A stretch of DNA of 64,000 nt from Rhynchobatus australiae (taxonomy: Eukaryota), in NCBI GenBank assembly GCA_034780895.1, contig JAUZTB010000074.1, positions 13,047,631 through 13,111,630 on the forward strand. The letters run 5' to 3'. The notes beneath the pieces were generated by a model, which had not been told where the DNA came from, did not search any database, and saw only the letters and a list, made by a program, of their open reading frames with translations. The position numbers and the translations under genes are program-made. Below, piece after piece: positions 1 through 32,129 of this stretch; positions within the stretch are counted from its first letter, which is position 1, and the number at the start of each line of letters is the position of its first letter.

Positions 1-235
1 TCAGAAATGATTTTCTGACAAGCAGGTACTTCAAATATCTGTTACAATATCAGCACACTGGAAGGTACCAATGATAAAACAGTGATGATGTTTTTGAGGT
101 GAATTCCTTACATCGGGCATGAGTCTTACAACAAGGTCCCTGTTACTGAGAGCAGATCTGAACATTTAACCTTTCAGATATGGTGTTGGGAATAAAGATT
201 CGATTAGCTCAAAAAAGACAAACTAGTTGAGCAAA

Positions 236-364
236 ACGGAGACACAAGAAATTCTGCAATCTGGAGCAATACACAAAAAGTGCTGAAGGAACTCGGCAGG
301 TCAGGCAGCATCTATGGAGGGGAATAAACAATCGACGTTTCAGGCTGAGACCCTTCATCAGGAC
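236..364 (-). mobile_element. Solo Penelope-like pLTR (~129 bp) carrying a hammerhead motif, with 11-bp TSD
   Basis: Same repeat as the 3' end of the PLE at 31670-31870 and the copies at 29010, 44627 and 46705. Flanked by an exact direct repeat agttgagcaaa at 225-235 and 365-375. Confidence 0.85.
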
Positions 365-368
365 AGTT
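327..368 (-). ncRNA. Minimal type I hammerhead ribozyme motif (PLE-type), core intact
   Basis: Minus strand reads AACUGUC-CUGAUGA-AGG gucucag CCU-GAAA-C-GUC^GAUUGUU. Canonical CUGAUGA/GAAA core, 3-bp helix II, helix I 6/7 paired, palindromic ACGU in place of helix III. Predicted cut between 334 and 333. Confidence 0.8.
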
Positions 369-3300
369 GAGCAAATTCTGTAGACTCTGCTCTTTTCCTT
401 GCCCTCTCTCCATTTTTATTCCTGAATTTTGGTTAAAATAAGGCAAAGTGGGGGGAAGTTTCCCCAAGGTAAAAGCAATTTAGCTCTACCATGACAGTTT
501 CACCTCTCCAACCTGTCTCCCCAACACTAGCACCAAACTGACAAAGGAGAAAGCCTTTGGGATATTTTGTTTAAAACAAGTCACATTAAAATCTTTGATT
601 GTAACAATAAATCTTCCAAGCTGCTAAAAATAGCTTGGCAGTAGTTTAGCGGCTTGCTTTTCAACAGGAAGGATAGATGTACTAGGAGTGATCTGTTACT
701 TTCAGAAGGGAACCCTTACTTTCTGCTAACTTACAAGGTGGACTCTGTTTCAAATCAAAGCCATAATGTGGCTGAAAGCCTTGGTTAAAAGCTCACTCTT
801 CAAATATTTAAATTGAAGTTGAAAACAAAACACATGGATATTCAGTAGTTCTTTAATTCTACCCTACATGTGAAATAATGCAAAGTGAGTTTCCCATGCC
901 CAATTAAGAGAGAATGCAGTTAAACAAAAATATATGCCGCATTTAGGACTTGCTCTTACATACTACTAGTTAAAAGAGCTGGCTGGATAAAATAGTCAGT
1001 ACACAGCATTAAAAAAAATCTTTTTCCTTTCACCTTAAGTCAAAGCATAATTTATCCAAATGTATTTTTAACTGCAAAATTTAAATATTTGTGAAGGGTA
1101 AGCCTTTAGACTCGTAGCAGTAAAGCCTTTGTTAGATTGTCTTGAAGTAACATAATTTCATGCTATGTTGCCACTTTGAGAGACGAATGTGTAAAGGGTC
1201 AAAGTTAAGTCTGACTCTGTATTTGGCCTGGCACCAGAACTCTGGAGACAGCACAGTCTTGAATGATGAATGGTCAGTTTTGTTTGTTTGTGTTGATAGT
1301 ATTTTACTGAACCAGTTAGGGTTTTATCAAGTGTTTATATAAAAATTTACACAACATGTTTTGACTTTCTTGAGCTAAGGGTTTTAAGTGTTAATTTTAG
1401 GAGTGCTCTTTTAACATTTGAAGAAGAGTAGGGATTGTGGCAACAAATTTAAAAGACTACACATTTATTACAAATACTGCCTGCCCCGTGTAACCTTCTC
1501 CTGGAAAATTTAACATTTTTGAAATAAATATGGTGCATTCCAAACACTGTCTCCTTTGCATTGAAGCTAATTTCTGAAAATACAGCAGCAAAGTTAAATG
1601 ACATTCTCCTACCCATGTCCAAATGCAGCTCTTTAACTGCTGATGCACTTCATTCCATGATCAGATTCAGTGCTGCAGATGGGAGTTCCCGATTTACTGC
1701 AGGAATTCCCACTTGGGGCACTGAGAGCTGCCCCAGAACAAAGCACCAGTGTCAATGAGAAATACATCAGCTCAGAATCACAGTTTAAGTTCCAAATAGA
1801 AAATTAGCCAAGGGTGACATATCTCTAAGCTGTTTGGCTGCACACAGATCAGCATTTATTTTCTCTACTATCAACAGTTTTGCACGACATCTTTCTCTCC
1901 CCCTCTTTGGGCACTCTTTCCCCCCACTGTTTAGTTCCAATAATGGACACTTTACTTCTGGGTGTGTACTATCACCTATATCTCGCTCAGTTCATTGCTG
2001 CCAGCTCCACATTGTCATTTTGTACCTACCCTTTACCTTGACTTACTTCACTTTCCATTTACTGTTTGTTTCTTCCTGCACTCTTCACTTTCTGCCCCTG
2101 TTCCAATGCTGCTTCCTGCCTGCTGCTGTCCTGAAGAAAGGAATATAGGTGCAAGTGGAACATCAAACTGAATGAAAAACAGTTCTGACATTGAGTGATG
2201 GAGAAACTTGTGTGACTATGTGCACAAAACCTTAATGGGTACACCTTTAATGTGCTGACAACCCTTGCAATTCCAGTCTAAAATACAGTACTGCTCCTCC
2301 CAACTCTACTTCCTCGTCCATTATTTCAGAACACAGGCTCACAAGGTACAGCAATAGTCACCATCATTGGGAGGTGTGGAGTTGGCTGGAGGGGAAAAAA
2401 TCACTTAAGTAAATAAAGTCTTTAGCACCAAATGAAGAACAAAAATAGCAGGCATGAAGAGTGTGATAAAGGTCGAGCATTCAATGGTTCTCAGTACCAG
2501 ATAGATGGGACATGTATGCTTGAAACATTTGTGTTCTCAACCTGTCAAAGTTGTCAGTCTGCTGCCTCTTACCCAGCACTCAGAGATCGTCACAGTTCAT
2601 TAAATGCATGGCCATGCAACAGCTTGGCATCTCTTCAAGGCTGCAACATTTCTGATGTTCAATATGCAATTTATCTGAATAACTGTTGTCAAACCTATTT
2701 AAAAGGCTTTTCTGAGACAAGGGTGGTAAAAACTTTTACAGAAGTCACACTGGAAATGTTTGGCACTGTGCTCACAGCGGTGAAGTTGAAGTCAGAGGCT
2801 TCTTTCAGAATGAGGAGTTATATCATTCTTTATCTTGTTCACTTGACCTTAAACCACCATGCACCTGAGCAATGAAGTATCCTGCATAAGAACTGTAAAA
2901 GCTGCGTCTGGCAAGCAGCAGGCTGACATTTCTTTCTCTTGGCAACATAAAAGAATCACCCACAAGAGTTCAACAACAACATAGCACACTGCTTCGGTTA
3001 ATTTGCCCGCTGGAAGTACCAGACAAATATAGCTGCGCTCTCGAGAATTGGGTTTGGAGGATGTGTATTGGGCAAAGTGCTGAGCCCACATGAACAAGAA
3101 TGTTTGACCTTCCTCAGCTGCAGAGCACAAGTGGTTGTGTCTTAGAAATACCGTTTATTAAACCAGACAGTTATGGCAGGATTGTCTACTGTAAAACACA
3201 CTGAAAAGAAAGTGACTAAAGTGCAGAACATTTGCTGTATTGCAGGAAAACTTATCACCACCTCATTTAACTTTGGAAGGATGGTGTCTCCAGCAACAGA

Positions 3301-3437
3301 GATCCCCAAGTCATTTGGGGTTCCTCTCATGAATACAAAGTCTGTTGCTATAGACACTTCTGTCATATCAATAAAATCATTGTGCAGTTTCTCTACACTC
3401 CTAGCTGTATAAATTCCATACAGCTCTGAAGACAATG

Positions 3438-3572
3438 TACAGGCTGTCCCTGGGTTATGAACACCCAATTTATGGACACCCCCATACATTAATGAGCTCC
3501 CATAATATGACTAAATTCAAAAGTCTGACATACATGCCTACATTCATTCCTCTGAACAGCAGACCTAGTTTC
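3438..3572 (+). mobile_element. Tc1/mariner (Tigger/pogo-like) DNA transposon end
   Basis: TA followed by caggctgtccctgggttatgaacacccaatttatggacacc, resembling Tigger-type TIRs (CAGGTtGTCCCCGgGTTACGAAC with CpG decay). Runs into an N gap; no second TIR seen. Confidence 0.55.
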
Positions 3573-4099
3573 NNNNNNNNNNNNNNNNNNNNNNNNNNNN
3601 NNNNNNNNNNNNNNNNNNNCTTTTGGTGTCATTCATTACAATACCATGGAGGTATAGTTACCATATCATGCGATTTTGTCTATTTTCTGACAAATGGACA
3701 AGATTGGCTAATGGACATCTGTAAAAACAGAACCCATTCATTATCTGGGGATGGCCAATAGATGGAATTCCAATCATGGGGCACAGTGAGGTAACAATGT
3801 CTCAATGCAATGCTTCATTTTGCTCATTCCGCACCAGTGCTGGTAAAAATGAATGTGTTGCCCATTTAGTCATCCAAGTCATAATTAGATACATAGGCTC
3901 CACTGACATAGAGCTGGTTCACAAATCCCCAAAATTCCAGTTCCCACTCAGCCAATTCATGCCAACAAATTTCTGCTGTTGTTAGCTGAAATTTCTGCAG
4001 AGGAATTTAATTGGAATAAATGTGTTTCTTACCTGAAATGGAAGGTGGCATCGTTAGGCTTGGTTCTGTGAAATAAGCCAGGCCACGTGGAGCAAACAT

Positions 4100-10171: not shown

Positions 10172-10400
10172 TAATAACACAAAAGCCAAAATACTTCAGA
10201 TGCCAGGAATGTGAAGATATTTGGAAAAAATGCTAAGGATACTCAGTGGATGGAGTAGCTTCTGTGGAACAAGAAAGAGAGGTAATGCTTCAGATGAAAA
10301 CAGTTCTGACAAAAGGTCAAAGACCTGAAACAAATTATTTTTCTCTTCACAGATGCTGCCTGACCTTCTGAGCATTCTTGGCTTCTCTTTTTCTATATGC
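10172..10400. mobile_element. Head-to-head inverted pair of older PLE pLTRs with a decayed hammerhead
   Basis: Left arm (aaatacttcagatgccaggaatgtgaa...tactcagtgga...tctgtgga) is antisense to the right arm (cacagatgctgcctgaccttctgagcattc). Plus strand 10306-10331 reads CTGACAA-A-AGGTC aaa GACCT-GAAAC. Confidence 0.7.
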
Positions 10401-21267: not shown

Positions 21268-22452
21268 GCAGTGTACTTGATTTAATCTATATGGATTTTT
21301 AAAAGGATTTTGACAAGGTCCTGCATGGCAGACTAGCCAAAATAGTTAAAACCCATGAGATTCAAGGGAGAGTGTCAAACTGGATCCAAAATGGTTTCAG
21401 TGGTAGGAATCAGGGGGTAAGGGTTAAGAGGTGTTTTGTGACTAGAAGGTCTTTACCAGTGGAGTTCTATGGGGCTCAGTACTCAGTCTCTTGTTTTTAT
21501 GTTGTATAATAACTTACATTTAAATGTAAGGGATATAATAAAGAGGTCTGCAGATGACACAAAAATCTGCTATGTGGCTGACAATGAGAAGCTTTCAACT
21601 GCAGGAATATTTATGGATGATCTAGTCAGTTGGGCACAAAAAGTGGCAAATGGAATTTAATCCAGCGAAGTCTGAGGCAATGAATTAGGGGAAGTACAAG
21701 TAAGACAAGGGAATATACAACAAATGGGAGGATAATGATTGCTATGGAGTAACAGAAACATTGGAGTATATATGCACAGATCCTTAAAGGCAGCAGGACA
21801 GGTCAATAAGGTAGTTAAAGAAGCATACAGGAATGGCATCCTTTATTAACCAAGGCACAGAATATGAGGGCAGGGAGGATATGCTGGAACTGTATACTAC
21901 ACCAGCTCGACCACGGCTCAAGTACTGCGTAAAGTTCTGGTCACCGCATTAGAAAATATGATTGCCCGAGAGAAACTGCAGGAAAAGATTTACAAGGATG
22001 AGGGCAAAAATGGAAAACTGTATCTATGAGGGAAGAATGGATCAGCTGGGATTGTTTTCATCGGAACAGAGAAGGGTAAGAGGAGACAGAATGAAGGTAT
22101 ATGGAACTATGAGTAAATAAGTCGGACCGACTTCCTTAGCAGACAGGCCAATAATCAGGGGAAGGAGGAGATTTAAAGTAATCGGTAGAAGGATTAGAGG
22201 GGAGATGAACATTTTTTTCCAATTATTCCAGAGGGTGGTAGGGCTCCAGAATACAATGCCTGAGAAAGTGGTGTGGGAGAAACCTTCCTCACATTTAAAC
22301 AGTACTTGGGTGTGTATTTGAAGAACTGTGACCTGTCGGGCTATGACCCAGTGCCGGATGGTGGGATTAGACTGGAGAGCTCTGTGCAATCGGCGTGGAC
22401 AGGATGGGTTAAATAGTCTGCTTCTGCATTATAAATTTTCTCTGATTCTACA
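21268..22452 (+). mobile_element. CR1 LINE RT 3' half + 3' UTR
   Basis: DLIYMDF..FDKV.HGRL, SADDTK, YCVKFWSPH and LGLFSSEQRR motifs with stops and frameshifts; terminates in a CR1-type tail. Confidence 0.9.
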
Positions 22453-29009: not shown

Positions 29010-29143
29010 GGAGACACAAGAGGCTGAAGATGCTGGAATCTGAAGCAACACACAAAATGCTGGCAGAACTCAATGGGTCAGGCAGCATCTGTGGAGGGAA
29101 ATGGACAGTCGACGTCTCAAGTTAAGACCCTTCATCTGGACTG
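29010..29143 (-). mobile_element. Solo PLE pLTR with mutated hammerhead
   Basis: Same family as 236-364. Minus strand reads CAGTC-CAGATGA-AGGGtcttaaCTT-GAGA-C-GTC-GACTG: perfect 5-bp helix I but two core substitutions. Confidence 0.85.
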
Positions 29144-31029
29144 GTTGCTTAATCAAGGGACTGCAGATGGTGGTGCAGATTTCTGGTGAGTGGGAATGGG
29201 CAGAGGTCCTGATTAAAGACAACTGGAAAAAGGATGAAGAAACTTACAAAAACGCAGAAAATAAGTGGAAATGAAATGAAATAAGTCCAACAAAAATACA
29301 AAAAAAGATGTGAAAACTGAAGAAATTGCAGCAGATGTTCCATTGTCAAATTGCAGCAGAAGTTCCAATAAATCATGACTTATAAAAACGTGATTCACTT
29401 CCTCATGCACCCTATGATGTGGAGGGTTACAATTTGGACAGAATAAGTTTAAAGTGTCTCCTTTGCAATACATACAGGGTCAAATACAAATGATGAATTA
29501 CAAAAAAAAGGCTGCTGATTATTTAAAAATAAGAGAATTGTCATAAAAACAGAAAACACTGGAAGGACTCAATAGGAGGGAATGAAACTCACTTCCACAG
29601 CCACATTACTTTCCTTACAAATGTATCTGGCTCCATGTGAAATTCCCCGGTTTGGATCCACCAATGATCATAGGTGTTTTGAATTATTCAGTGTCTTCCT
29701 AATCACTGCTTCTCTAATCTTGCATCTAAAATATATCTTGATGCCATGCGTTGTTACACATATTCTCCTGAGCCCTCTATACAACAGCACTGACACTATC
29801 TCAAAATCGTCACGGTCTGTAGTTTCATTTCATCCTTTGCCAAATTTGGTGTTTCAACAAAAAGTTTTTTTTTTCCCGTTCTTTCAGATATCAAAGATCT
29901 CAAACTTCAACAGCTCTTGAATTCCAAAAATACTCCTTTGGATCCTTCACTGTCTTTTGACCCTATCCCTTCCTTGGTCCAACCCTTGCCGTATTTTCAC
30001 TGCCCTTCCTGATCTTCCCCTCTTTGACTCTGAACAATCAGTCCTCAGCAGAGCCCTCAGCTTCATCTCCCTATGTTCCTTCCTTAATGAATTCGGACCT
30101 TGATACAATGTTGAACTCACCTTCCACAGCTTCACTTCTGTGCCTTTTCTTTGACTAGGTGTTCTCACCCATAACTGTGGATCCTTTCTTCCATCTTCAA
30201 CATTCTATCTGGACCACCCTTCCAACTTCTTTCCCAGGTTATTCCATCACCCTAACTCTTAACGTATCCCACTCTGAATTTGCAGCACTCTGCTCACTGA
30301 GGACCAATCTCAACACTGTCATTCAACCTACTAACAAAGGTTTAGTGAACTGACCACTACATCACAGAGGCAGAACGTCACCTCCTCTTATCTTTCAATG
30401 GACCACGACCCCACCAGTCTTGTATCCCAGACAGTCAATGATCTAATATCCTTGGGAATATGCAAACCCCACCCTCATAATCCCCAACCCACTCCTCCCA
30501 CCCCTTCAGCCGAATTTTATCTCCTCCTCGAGCTCCACAAACAGGACCATAAGGAGAAATACTTTGTATCAGCCTGTTCTTGCCCCACAGGATTCATTTC
30601 TCCTACCTTGACTTCTTTTTCTCCCTTGTCCTGTCTCTTTCCATTTAGCCATGATACCACTGATGCTTTCTCATTTCCTGATGCCAACCAGCTCACCTTC
30701 AATTGGATTAGACCTCCAATTCTTTCATATCTCCATCCGATGCCAGGATGGTCTGAAGGTCCTTTGCTTCTTCCTTGAACAGAAGCCCAGCTCATCCCCT
30801 TTCATCACTTACACTTCAACTATATTCATTTTCCCCAAATCAAAGGTATGGCGATGGGAACTGGTATGGACTTGAGCTATGCTTGCTCTTTTGTTGGAAA
30901 CTTGGCACGGTTCTTGTGTCAGTCCTCAGTAGGATCCCTCCAACTCCTTTTCTGTTAAAGTGATGACTCCCAAACCTGAAAATATCATTACTTTTGCTAC
31001 GATATCCCCCCTGCTCTCACATTCAGATG

Positions 31030-31628: not shown

Positions 31629-31749
31629 GTTCTATTTGGTTACATTGACAACTTTGGTCTGCATCTTACCACAGACATTCCCTCTGTTCTCTCCTTCACC
31701 ACCCCACCCCACTCTCTGCAACTAAATAGACCCTCATCTACTCATTTTT

Positions 31750-31790
31750 CCACTTCTGTTGAAGGGTCCTCAACCCGAATGTCAACTCTG
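31750..31790 (+). ncRNA. Degenerate hammerhead motif in the PLE 3' pLTR (probably inactive)
   Basis: CTGTTGA-A-GGG tcctcaa CCC-GAAT-GTC-aac; A6U substitution and loss of bases in GAAAC. Confidence 0.55.
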
Positions 31791-32129
31791 TTTCTCTCCC
31801 CACTGATGCTGCTTCCCTGTTGAGGCTCTCCCAGCATTTTCATTTTTTTCCAGCTCCTGTAGCTTCTTGCTCCATTTATTTTGTCTCAATGCTTTGTTGT
31901 CAAAGTTCTGTGCATTGTGAGCCAGATAAAATTTGATTATATCTAAAATAATCATAGATAACAGAGTCTCAAGTGAAGACTCTAACATTAATGCAAACAG
32001 ATAATTATTTATAAGGCTAGTGAGAATCAGTGAAATCACATGAAGAAAGCATCAAAAATGTTGTAATCAAATAAACAAAGATTTGTATTAATATTGTGCC
32101 TTTAGTGTGGTAAGGTACTACATGGTACA

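What the first reader, a model, noticed from the sequence alone, without database searches (positions are those of the whole stretch)
225..375. 129-bp solo insertion carrying an intact minimal hammerhead ribozyme, with its own 11-bp TSD
Seen: the minus strand gives AACUGUC-CUGAUGA-AGG(gucucag)CCU-GAAA-C-GUC^GAUUGUU, an unmutated hammerhead core. Helix III is reduced to the palindrome ACGU, and agttgagcaaa is duplicated exactly on both sides. Established: Penelope-like retroelements carry minimal type I hammerheads in their pLTRs that lack a foldable helix III and cleave as dimers (Cervera and de la Pena 2014; Lunse et al. 2017). Inference: this is an independently integrated, ORF-less ribozyme unit and the copy here most likely to remain active. 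The insert retains the core 5' of the cut site, so it was not copied from the 3' cleavage product. The TSD bases happen to extend helix I.
Basis: partly seen in the sequence, partly recalled or inferred. Interest (0 to 1): 0.72.

Follow-up and report, generated by a model that had tools for sequence, protein, structure and literature searches.

The report
Penelope end-stub with worn hammerhead
This is one separately inserted, slightly decayed copy of the ribozyme-bearing end of a very abundant Penelope-type jumping gene, a known kind of repeat; its one point of interest is that such stubs start at a fixed spot, often with an extra G, which likely marks where the parent's RNA begins.

Summary
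In detail: a 129-bp insert (236-364), an exact 11-bp duplication and a minimal-hammerhead core on the minus strand. It is not a separate ribozyme element. [quoted passage not shown] The insertion is old (shared with two related organisms). Against "most likely active": 401 copies have an equally intact core, and this one has lost G10.1-C11.1, one helix I pair and part of its helix I arm. The stub is not a random truncation: 16 of 83 young copies end within 6 nt at the front of helix I, none pile up at the cut site, and the base before that start is G in 65 of 100 listed copies against 16 of 100 at a control site. This likely records a capped RNA start, so stubs would be run-off cDNAs of uncleaved RNA. 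No cleavage or transcription data.

The parts
225..235 (.). TSD copy at the element's 3' side; 235-230 (minus strand) also match the PLE's own continuation (6-nt microhomology)
236..364 (-). Solo PLE terminal module (hammerhead + about 60 nt + optional tail), 129 bp, with a 9-nt deletion relative to relatives
236..270 (-). Optional ~35-nt tail between the family's two preferred 3' ends (boundaries approximate)
   Evidence: 3' ends at profile 601-620 (28 of 94) and 631-650 (52 of 94)
327..333 (-). Helix I 3' arm; 331 is a private C-to-U change
334..341 (-). GAAA core, ACGU palindrome (338-335) and C17; predicted cut between 334 and 333
   Evidence: cleavage untested
342..354 (-). Bulged A plus 4-bp helix II; 346 and 342 are CpG-type changes, 342 removes G10.1-C11.1
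355..361 (-). CUGAUGA core, intact
362..364 (-). Native remnant of the helix I 5' arm (GUC); 364 is the insert's 5' end, one base inside the family's commonest start
365..375 (.). TSD copy at the element's 5' side; 368-366 can pair with 329-327 after a U.U mismatch

Best explanation
The insert is an old, solo copy of the hammerhead-bearing end module of an abundant Penelope-like retroelement, likely pasted in by the parent's own reverse transcriptase and endonuclease and probably inert as a ribozyme today. Shown: identity with the end of RT/GIY-YIG-coding copies, TSD, two preferred 3' ends, one preferred 5' end at the front of helix I with an excess of an added G, no excess at the cut site. 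Inferred: the endonuclease nicked the target, the RT began inside uncleaved PLE RNA at the tail (here helped by 6 nt of complementarity) and ran to the RNA's 5' end, which would be a capped Pol II start at an initiator-like CCAGTCC overlapping helix I; this copy begins one base inside that start. I give 0.9 to 'PLE end stub by target-primed RT', about 0.6 to 'the fixed 5' end is the capped RNA start', and about 0.85 to 'no appreciable cleavage at this locus'.
For: 23 of the 29 closest relatives continue past window 364 into a shared tract and on into GIY-YIG (Pfam E 0.0065 and 0.0011; Atlas 0.96) and RT sequence (Pfam E 0.0053; Atlas 0.93). A decayed ~3.5-kb element with the module at both ends is in L106. 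In 1 Mb sampled evenly: 175 hits at E<=1e-3 in 130 loci; 52 of 90 uncensored 5' ends at profile 501-520, 1 of 90 at 541-550. 16 of 83 uncensored young copies end within 0-5 nt of the core against 4 in the next 25 nt (p 8e-9). Genome counts with two non-family bases in front: 640 at A+1, 576 at G+2, 75 at the cut site, 123 three bases further on, 161 mid-tail. Preceding base G/A/T 65/19/16 at A+1 against 16/32/52 at the control (hand tallies of the first 100 listed; G versus A p 9e-7). Internal initiation at two tail-bounding sites on uncleaved RNA is shown in vitro for an Anolis PLE (PMC11167929). Added G is attributed to cap copying in L1/SVA (PMC3287187).
Against: Both Pfam matches are below the curated cut-offs, 3 of 4 and 4 of 5 fragments gave no Pfam hit, and no intact ORF was found. 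No RNA evidence for a start site. The added G is weaker in non-inverted copies (8 of 17) than at inverted junctions (10 of 12), where some G come from the inverted copy itself. This copy has no demonstrable added G. The same motif also reads as a 3' splice acceptor, and in D. virilis the intron ends at helix I (PMC4209133) with the start 46 nt before the intron (PMC2377424). Frangieh et al. found initiation without target homology, so the 6-nt match may be incidental. The tree test has little power (95 columns, no starred branch). The pattern counts differ in subfamily coverage and are not normalised to total copies.
Confidence: 0.8

Rival explanations
1. Plain random 5' truncation of a PLE copy, with no special meaning of the start point.
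For: 63 of 90 young copies are longer and thin out gradually towards the RT; 5' truncation is typical of PLEs (PMC8557442); this copy shows no clear added G.
Against: About 17-fold excess of ends per base in a 6-nt stretch; added-G excess; 7 of 30 loci found by the 5' region carry a 5' pLTR starting at profile 506-521; opposite-strand joints at window 361-364 in four other organisms.
Confidence: 0.1
2. The stubs are a self-propagating, SINE- or retrozyme-like non-autonomous family transcribed from their own loci.
For: Stubs are the commonest form in the even sample, several have their own 8-16-bp TSDs, and a stub starting at an internal initiator could be transcribed. PLE-derived non-autonomous retrozymes exist (bioRxiv 10.64898/2026.07.22.740005).
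Against: Short and long copies are intermixed (12 changes against 13.0 in shuffles) and share diagnostic variants; four of this copy's five nearest rows are long. No shared sequence upstream of stubs. This copy carries bases of the parent's continuation. Not tandem.
Confidence: 0.07
3. The fixed 5' end comes from splicing at the polypyrimidine-CAG acceptor, or from endonuclease resolution of the intermediate, not from a transcription start.
For: A pyrimidine tract and CAG directly precede the core; intron end at helix I in D. virilis (PMC4209133); endonuclease resolution is proposed for tails (PMC8557442).
Against: No common upstream exon; upstream sequence is TSD, short filler or an inverted copy at varied break points; G rather than A dominates at the -3 place of the supposed exon end; junctions between the 5' region and the module scatter over about 240 nt with no single donor.
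Confidence: 0.2
4. The copy is a retained, functional ribozyme that cuts a host transcript.
For: Core intact and insertion shared with organisms C and D; TSD restores three helix I pairs.
Against: An intact core by chance is expected (7 of 76 sampled copies; 401 exact matches); helix changes are ordinary decay; minimal hammerheads are inactive as monomers (PMC4209133) and the Anolis one needs its protein (PMC11167929); the next same-strand copy (29010-29144) has a broken core.
Confidence: 0.03

Closest known systems
[quoted passage not shown]
   Same: Type I core, bulged base between 9 and 10.1, palindromic ACGU in place of helix III, location in a pLTR, mostly found as single motifs of truncated copies.
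   Different: This copy lacks G10.1-C11.1 and a full helix I. The parts read do not describe a fixed 5' end with an added G, and list fish, coelacanth, frog and reptiles but no cartilaginous fish (supplements not opened).
Poseidon PLE of Anolis (Frangieh et al. 2024, PMC11167929)
   Same: Two RT start sites bounding a 30-40-nt tail about 100-135 nt past the core; uncleaved RNA is the template; no ends at the cut site.
   Different: The parent here has a Neptune/Nematis-type CX4CxxC linker; here the 5' ends also cluster, and this insertion shows 6 nt of target homology.
EN+ PLE insertion units, Neptune type (Craig et al. 2021, PMC8557442; Arkhipova et al. 2013, PMC3846280)
   Same: RT then GIY-YIG with Zn-finger-like linker, pLTRs, optional tail, head-to-head inverted copies, 8-10-bp TSDs, solo pLTRs.
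   Different: Solo pLTRs there were without TSD and ascribed to recombination or deletion; here several solos have their own TSDs and a common start. Clade not tested by a tree.
Non-LTR retrozymes (bioRxiv 10.64898/2026.07.22.740005; PMC7229834 seen as search listing only)
   Same: ORF-less, hammerhead-bearing, PLE-derived.
   Different: Retrozymes are tandem arrays with their own lineages; this is a solo copy intermixed with long PLE copies.

Membership tests
PLE min-HHR | Conserved core CUGANGA / GAAA / UH | tested here: met
   361-355, 341-338, 335-334
PLE min-HHR | [quoted passage not shown] | tested here: met
   A354; A in 73 of 76 aligned copies
PLE min-HHR | G10.1-C11.1 pair | tested here: not met
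   G.U in this copy; C in 51 of 79 young relatives, the rest T. Met by the family, lost by this copy, which is therefore filed as a decayed descendant
PLE min-HHR | Palindromic 15.2-16.2, no helix III | tested here: met
   ACGU 338-335
PLE min-HHR | Helix I of 4-5 bp | tested here: inconclusive
   Family 5 bp; this copy 3 native pairs (one G.U), a U.U mismatch, then 3 TSD-derived pairs
PLE min-HHR | Covariation in helices I/II | tested here: inconclusive
   Variation is mostly CpG decay; one subfamily-level C-G to U-A switch in helix I (12 of 16 against 8 of 49), probably a single event
PLE min-HHR | Self-cleavage as a dimer or with protein | not testable with these tools
   Energy evaluation only
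EN+ Penelope-like element (parent) | RT followed by C-terminal GIY-YIG | tested here: met
   Colinear in L106; Atlas 0.93 and 0.96; Pfam hits below cut-off; all copies seen are broken
EN+ Penelope-like element (parent) | pLTRs, optional 30-40-bp tail, inverted 5'-truncated copies | tested here: met
   (30 head-to-head pairs among 197 hits)
Neptune clade | CX2-5CxxC linker before GIY-YIG (shared with Nematis) | tested here: met
   C-x4-C-x2-C in L038, L046, L048 translations
Neptune clade | RT phylogeny | not tested
   No reference PLE proteins in hand; the label rests on the linker and on recalled motifs
Non-LTR retrozyme | Tandem units each with a hammerhead | tested here: not met
   Single copy with TSD; nearest other hit at 10301, opposite strand
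Non-LTR retrozyme / SINE-like family | Own lineage apart from the autonomous element | tested here: inconclusive
   No clustering of short copies, but the tree is unresolved
Non-LTR retrozyme | Circular RNA intermediate | not testable with these tools
   No RNA run available

The most novel reading that the evidence does not exclude
In this vertebrate PLE family the capped transcript starts on the first base of hammerhead helix I (the initiator and the ribozyme's 5' arm are the same bases). Internal RT initiation 100-135 nt downstream then runs off the cap and yields on the order of 10^5 complete, TSD-flanked mini-insertions, 5' pLTRs and inversion junctions with one shared end and a copied-cap G, while the ribozyme's cleavage product is not used as a template. 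Genome stubs would thus map both the PLE promoter and the RT start sites, and cleavage at +32 would act to destroy or decap templates rather than to make them.
Probability: 0.55. Interest if true: 0.5.

Novelty: new member of a known kind. Interest (0 to 1): 0.3.

Why it matters
As a single locus it matters little: one of hundreds of intact-core copies, and not among the best. At family level the fixed 5' end with an added G bears on two open points named in the papers read: how pLTRs arise and what the PLE hammerhead is for. If the start is the cap site, genomic stubs give in vivo support to the internal-initiation, uncleaved-template model from Anolis and make the promoter and the ribozyme's role directly testable by CAGE and by in vitro TPRT on capped RNA.

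Tried and rejected
Rfam scan: no hammerhead family at E<=10. MFE folding: not better than shuffles, and the predicted folds are not the hammerhead; the MFE dimer is not the active fold for this copy or for an intact relative, so the energies only rank helix strength. PDB search with an RT fragment: 5 weak unrelated hits. Sequencing runs: no RNA holder listed, which says nothing on expression. Empty site: no joint skipping the insert was listed in 8 runs laid; runs X2 and X10 covered only parts of the flanks. Host gene: ORF lists for window 1-4000 and 5 kb upstream showed nothing that I recognised; they were not scanned against Pfam. Structure-stalling of RT was rejected by reasoning: a stall would fall at the 3' foot of helix I, not at its 5' arm. 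A single splice donor was rejected. A sequence look-up of earlier findings gave nothing. Lunse et al. could not be read. Not in print: no paper on the fixed start or added G in PLE stubs surfaced in the listings, but the library lacks most subscription papers and no supplement was opened.

Full report
Observation. The 11-mer AGTTGAGCAAA is exact at 225-235 and 365-375 and encloses 129 bp. Such a match arose in 0 of 3000 random flank pairs of the window and 0 of 380 mismatched pairs of family flanks. The minus strand holds the minimal type I hammerhead core as described, with the cut predicted at 334/333. A loose motif scan gave 3 hits in the window, and by eye only this one has complementary arms. 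Rfam has no hammerhead hit at E<=10.

It is the end of a Penelope-like element. The insert found 4267 first-look candidates in its own genome; 40 were scored, 84-93% identical apart from itself. Of the 29 relatives fetched, 6 stop within 5 nt of window 364 and 23 continue into one shared tract. That tract leads into the C-terminus of a GIY-YIG endonuclease with a C-x4-C-x2-C linker and then into RT sequence. Pfam hits are below cut-off (GIY-YIG E 0.0065 and 0.0011; RVT_1 E 0.0053; 3 of 4 and 4 of 5 fragments had no hit); the Atlas gave GIY-YIG 0.96 and RT 0.93. L106 holds a decayed element of about 3.5 kb with the module at both ends. The linker points to Neptune or Nematis (PMC8557442, passages and section 6); I built no RT tree. 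That the host is a cartilaginous fish is my recall of the repeat plus other agents' notes, not a call result.

Abundance and shape. In 100 evenly spaced 10-kb stretches (1,000,000 bases, 177,469 N) a profile of the 3' end gave 187 hits at E<=0.01, 175 at E<=1e-3 in 130 loci, about 2.9x10^5 loci by extrapolation. Among hits of 30 bits or more that reach the tail, 3' ends fall at two places about 35 nt apart (28 and 52 of 94), and 30 head-to-head pairs occur among all 197 hits. Both are known PLE signatures (PMC8557442; PMC11167929, parts 1-3 of 4 read). TSD-like repeats of 8 nt or more flank 6 of 20 non-inverted stubs against 11 of 380 in the null; 4 of the 6 abut the ends and 2 are low-complexity. 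Stubs L254, L282 and L294 have 16, 16 and 10 bp.

Age and empty site. Contigs of organisms C and D, whose flanks differ by about 3-7%, run from both flanks into the insert, so it predates their split. In organism J one contig bridges window 161 to 595 with 272 instead of 433 bases, 161 fewer, close to insert plus one TSD (140) plus the local indel rate. The letters were not seen, so this is indirect.

State of the ribozyme. 401 genome copies match a 34-letter intact-core pattern (control 0). I fetched 90 of the 100 listed: 39 have the majority helices and 89 have the majority helix I arm. This copy differs from the majority at 8 of its first 100 positions, including 346 and 342 in helix II (CpG type; 342 removes G10.1-C11.1, which PMC4209133 calls highly conserved) and 331 in helix I, and it has a 9-nt deletion in the tail. 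It is the only one of 6 window copies aligned over the core that is intact, but 7 of 76 aligned copies are intact in the sample, so no selection is needed. Minimal hammerheads were inactive as monomers and weak as dimers (PMC4209133, parts 1-2 of 4), the Anolis one needs its protein (PMC11167929), and 8 of 9 Xenopus dimers did not cleave (bioRxiv 10.64898/2026.07.22.740005, parts 1-3 of 5).

The 5' end is not random. 52 of 90 uncensored 5' ends lie at profile 501-520, the helix I 5' arm, and 1 of 90 at 541-550, the cut site; part of this may be older subfamilies with different upstream sequence. In the 90 young copies, chosen without regard to upstream sequence, 63 are long, 7 abut N, 4 end 11-27 nt upstream and 16 end within 0-5 nt (p 8e-9). 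The 5' pLTR starts at profile 506-521 in 7 of 30 loci found by the 5' region, and opposite-strand joints pile at window 361-364 in four other organisms. Exact patterns with two non-family bases in front count 640 at the A three bases before the core and 576 at the next G, against 75 at the cut site, 123 three bases further on and 161 mid-tail (per allowed dinucleotide 71, 64, 12.5, 13.7, 17.9). Of 25 cut-site matches inspected, 14 were inversion junctions, 8 mutated full motifs and 3 true truncations.

An added G. The base before the A start is G in 65, A in 19 and T in 16 of the first 100 listed; at the control site it is 16, 32 and 52 (hand tallies; G versus A p 9e-7; T at the control is inflated by double mutants). 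Before the G start it is G in 48 of 100. In 30 inspected loci 1 was long, 12 inverted (10 G) and 17 non-inverted (8 G; three of the 17 have pyrimidine-rich upstream sequence and may be long copies of other subfamilies); upstream sequences share nothing beyond a frequent TG. An untemplated G at full-length L1/SVA 5' ends is attributed to copying the cap (PMC3287187, passages). The start motif fits the initiator consensus YYANWYY (recalled). D. virilis Penelope has an internal TATA-less promoter (PMC2377424, passages) and rotifer pLTRs carry Inr-like motifs (PMC3846280, passages). I infer that the RNA starts here and that stubs are run-off cDNAs begun at one of the two tail sites. This copy starts one base inside, with T in front, so it fits the hot spot but shows no certain added G. 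At its 3' junction the parent's continuation matches 6 TSD bases, consistent with primer annealing; other stubs show 1-2 nt by eye.

Separate lineage? In a 71-row tree short copies need 12 changes against 13.0 in shuffles, share diagnostic variants with long copies, and four of this copy's five nearest rows are long; the tree has no well-supported branch. I find no support for a self-propagating family, but the test is weak.

Comparison and verdict. The motif, its place in pLTRs and its dispersal as single copies are published (PMC4209133; review passages in PMC6765202 and PMC6155905; Lunse et al. seen only as a reference). Earlier agents of this scan reported the same stubs and the fixed start on other DNA; I noted the start-site idea, before that look-up. 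The locus is a new, decayed member of a known kind. The family-level added-G signal is the only part that a PLE specialist might find new; it needs RNA data. Supplements were not opened and may already show cartilaginous-fish motifs or end distributions.

Noticed in passing
window 29010-29144 (-), 46801-46928 (+), 44627-44771 (-), 44792-44895 (-), 44915-44988 (+), 45110-45147 (+), 10301-10372 (+), 31747-31840 (+), 62195-62314 (+): Nine more fragments of the same PLE end; six start at profile 505-515. The five aligned over the core all have core mutations; 44627-45147 is a cluster in both orientations.
   Followed up: partly
L212, L215, L222, L225, L226, L231, L233, L235 (loci found with the PLE 5' region): Internally deleted mini-elements: module, 200-450 nt of the 5' region, then the module again, often re-entering at the helix I arm; junctions scatter, suggesting template jumps.
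   Followed up: partly
L392, L393, L396, L404, L405, L406, L413, L414: Inversion junctions joined exactly through the helix I complementarity (antisense 5' arm overlapping the sense 3' arm), as if the cDNA end annealed to the helix I partner sequence.
   Followed up: no
first 100 matches: TG precedes the A start in 39 of 100; may be a second untemplated base or CpG decay next to the added G.
   Followed up: no
window 47983-48454 and 49122-49594: A ~470-bp direct duplication 1.14 kb apart, about 91% identical, ending in a second short-repeat family (families D2, D3, D5).
   Followed up: no
window 21434-22066, 50431-50844, 54468-54611: Fragments of another dispersed repeat, by recall LINE-like (families D7, D12, D14).
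   Followed up: no
window 60-160 and 490-900: Flanks still align in distant organisms F, H, I and J while the stretch next to the insert does not; no gene was identified there.
   Followed up: partly
L097 and L090/L098: Partial tandem PLE arrangements: an endonuclease-bearing 3' part directly followed by the 5' part of another ORF.
   Followed up: no
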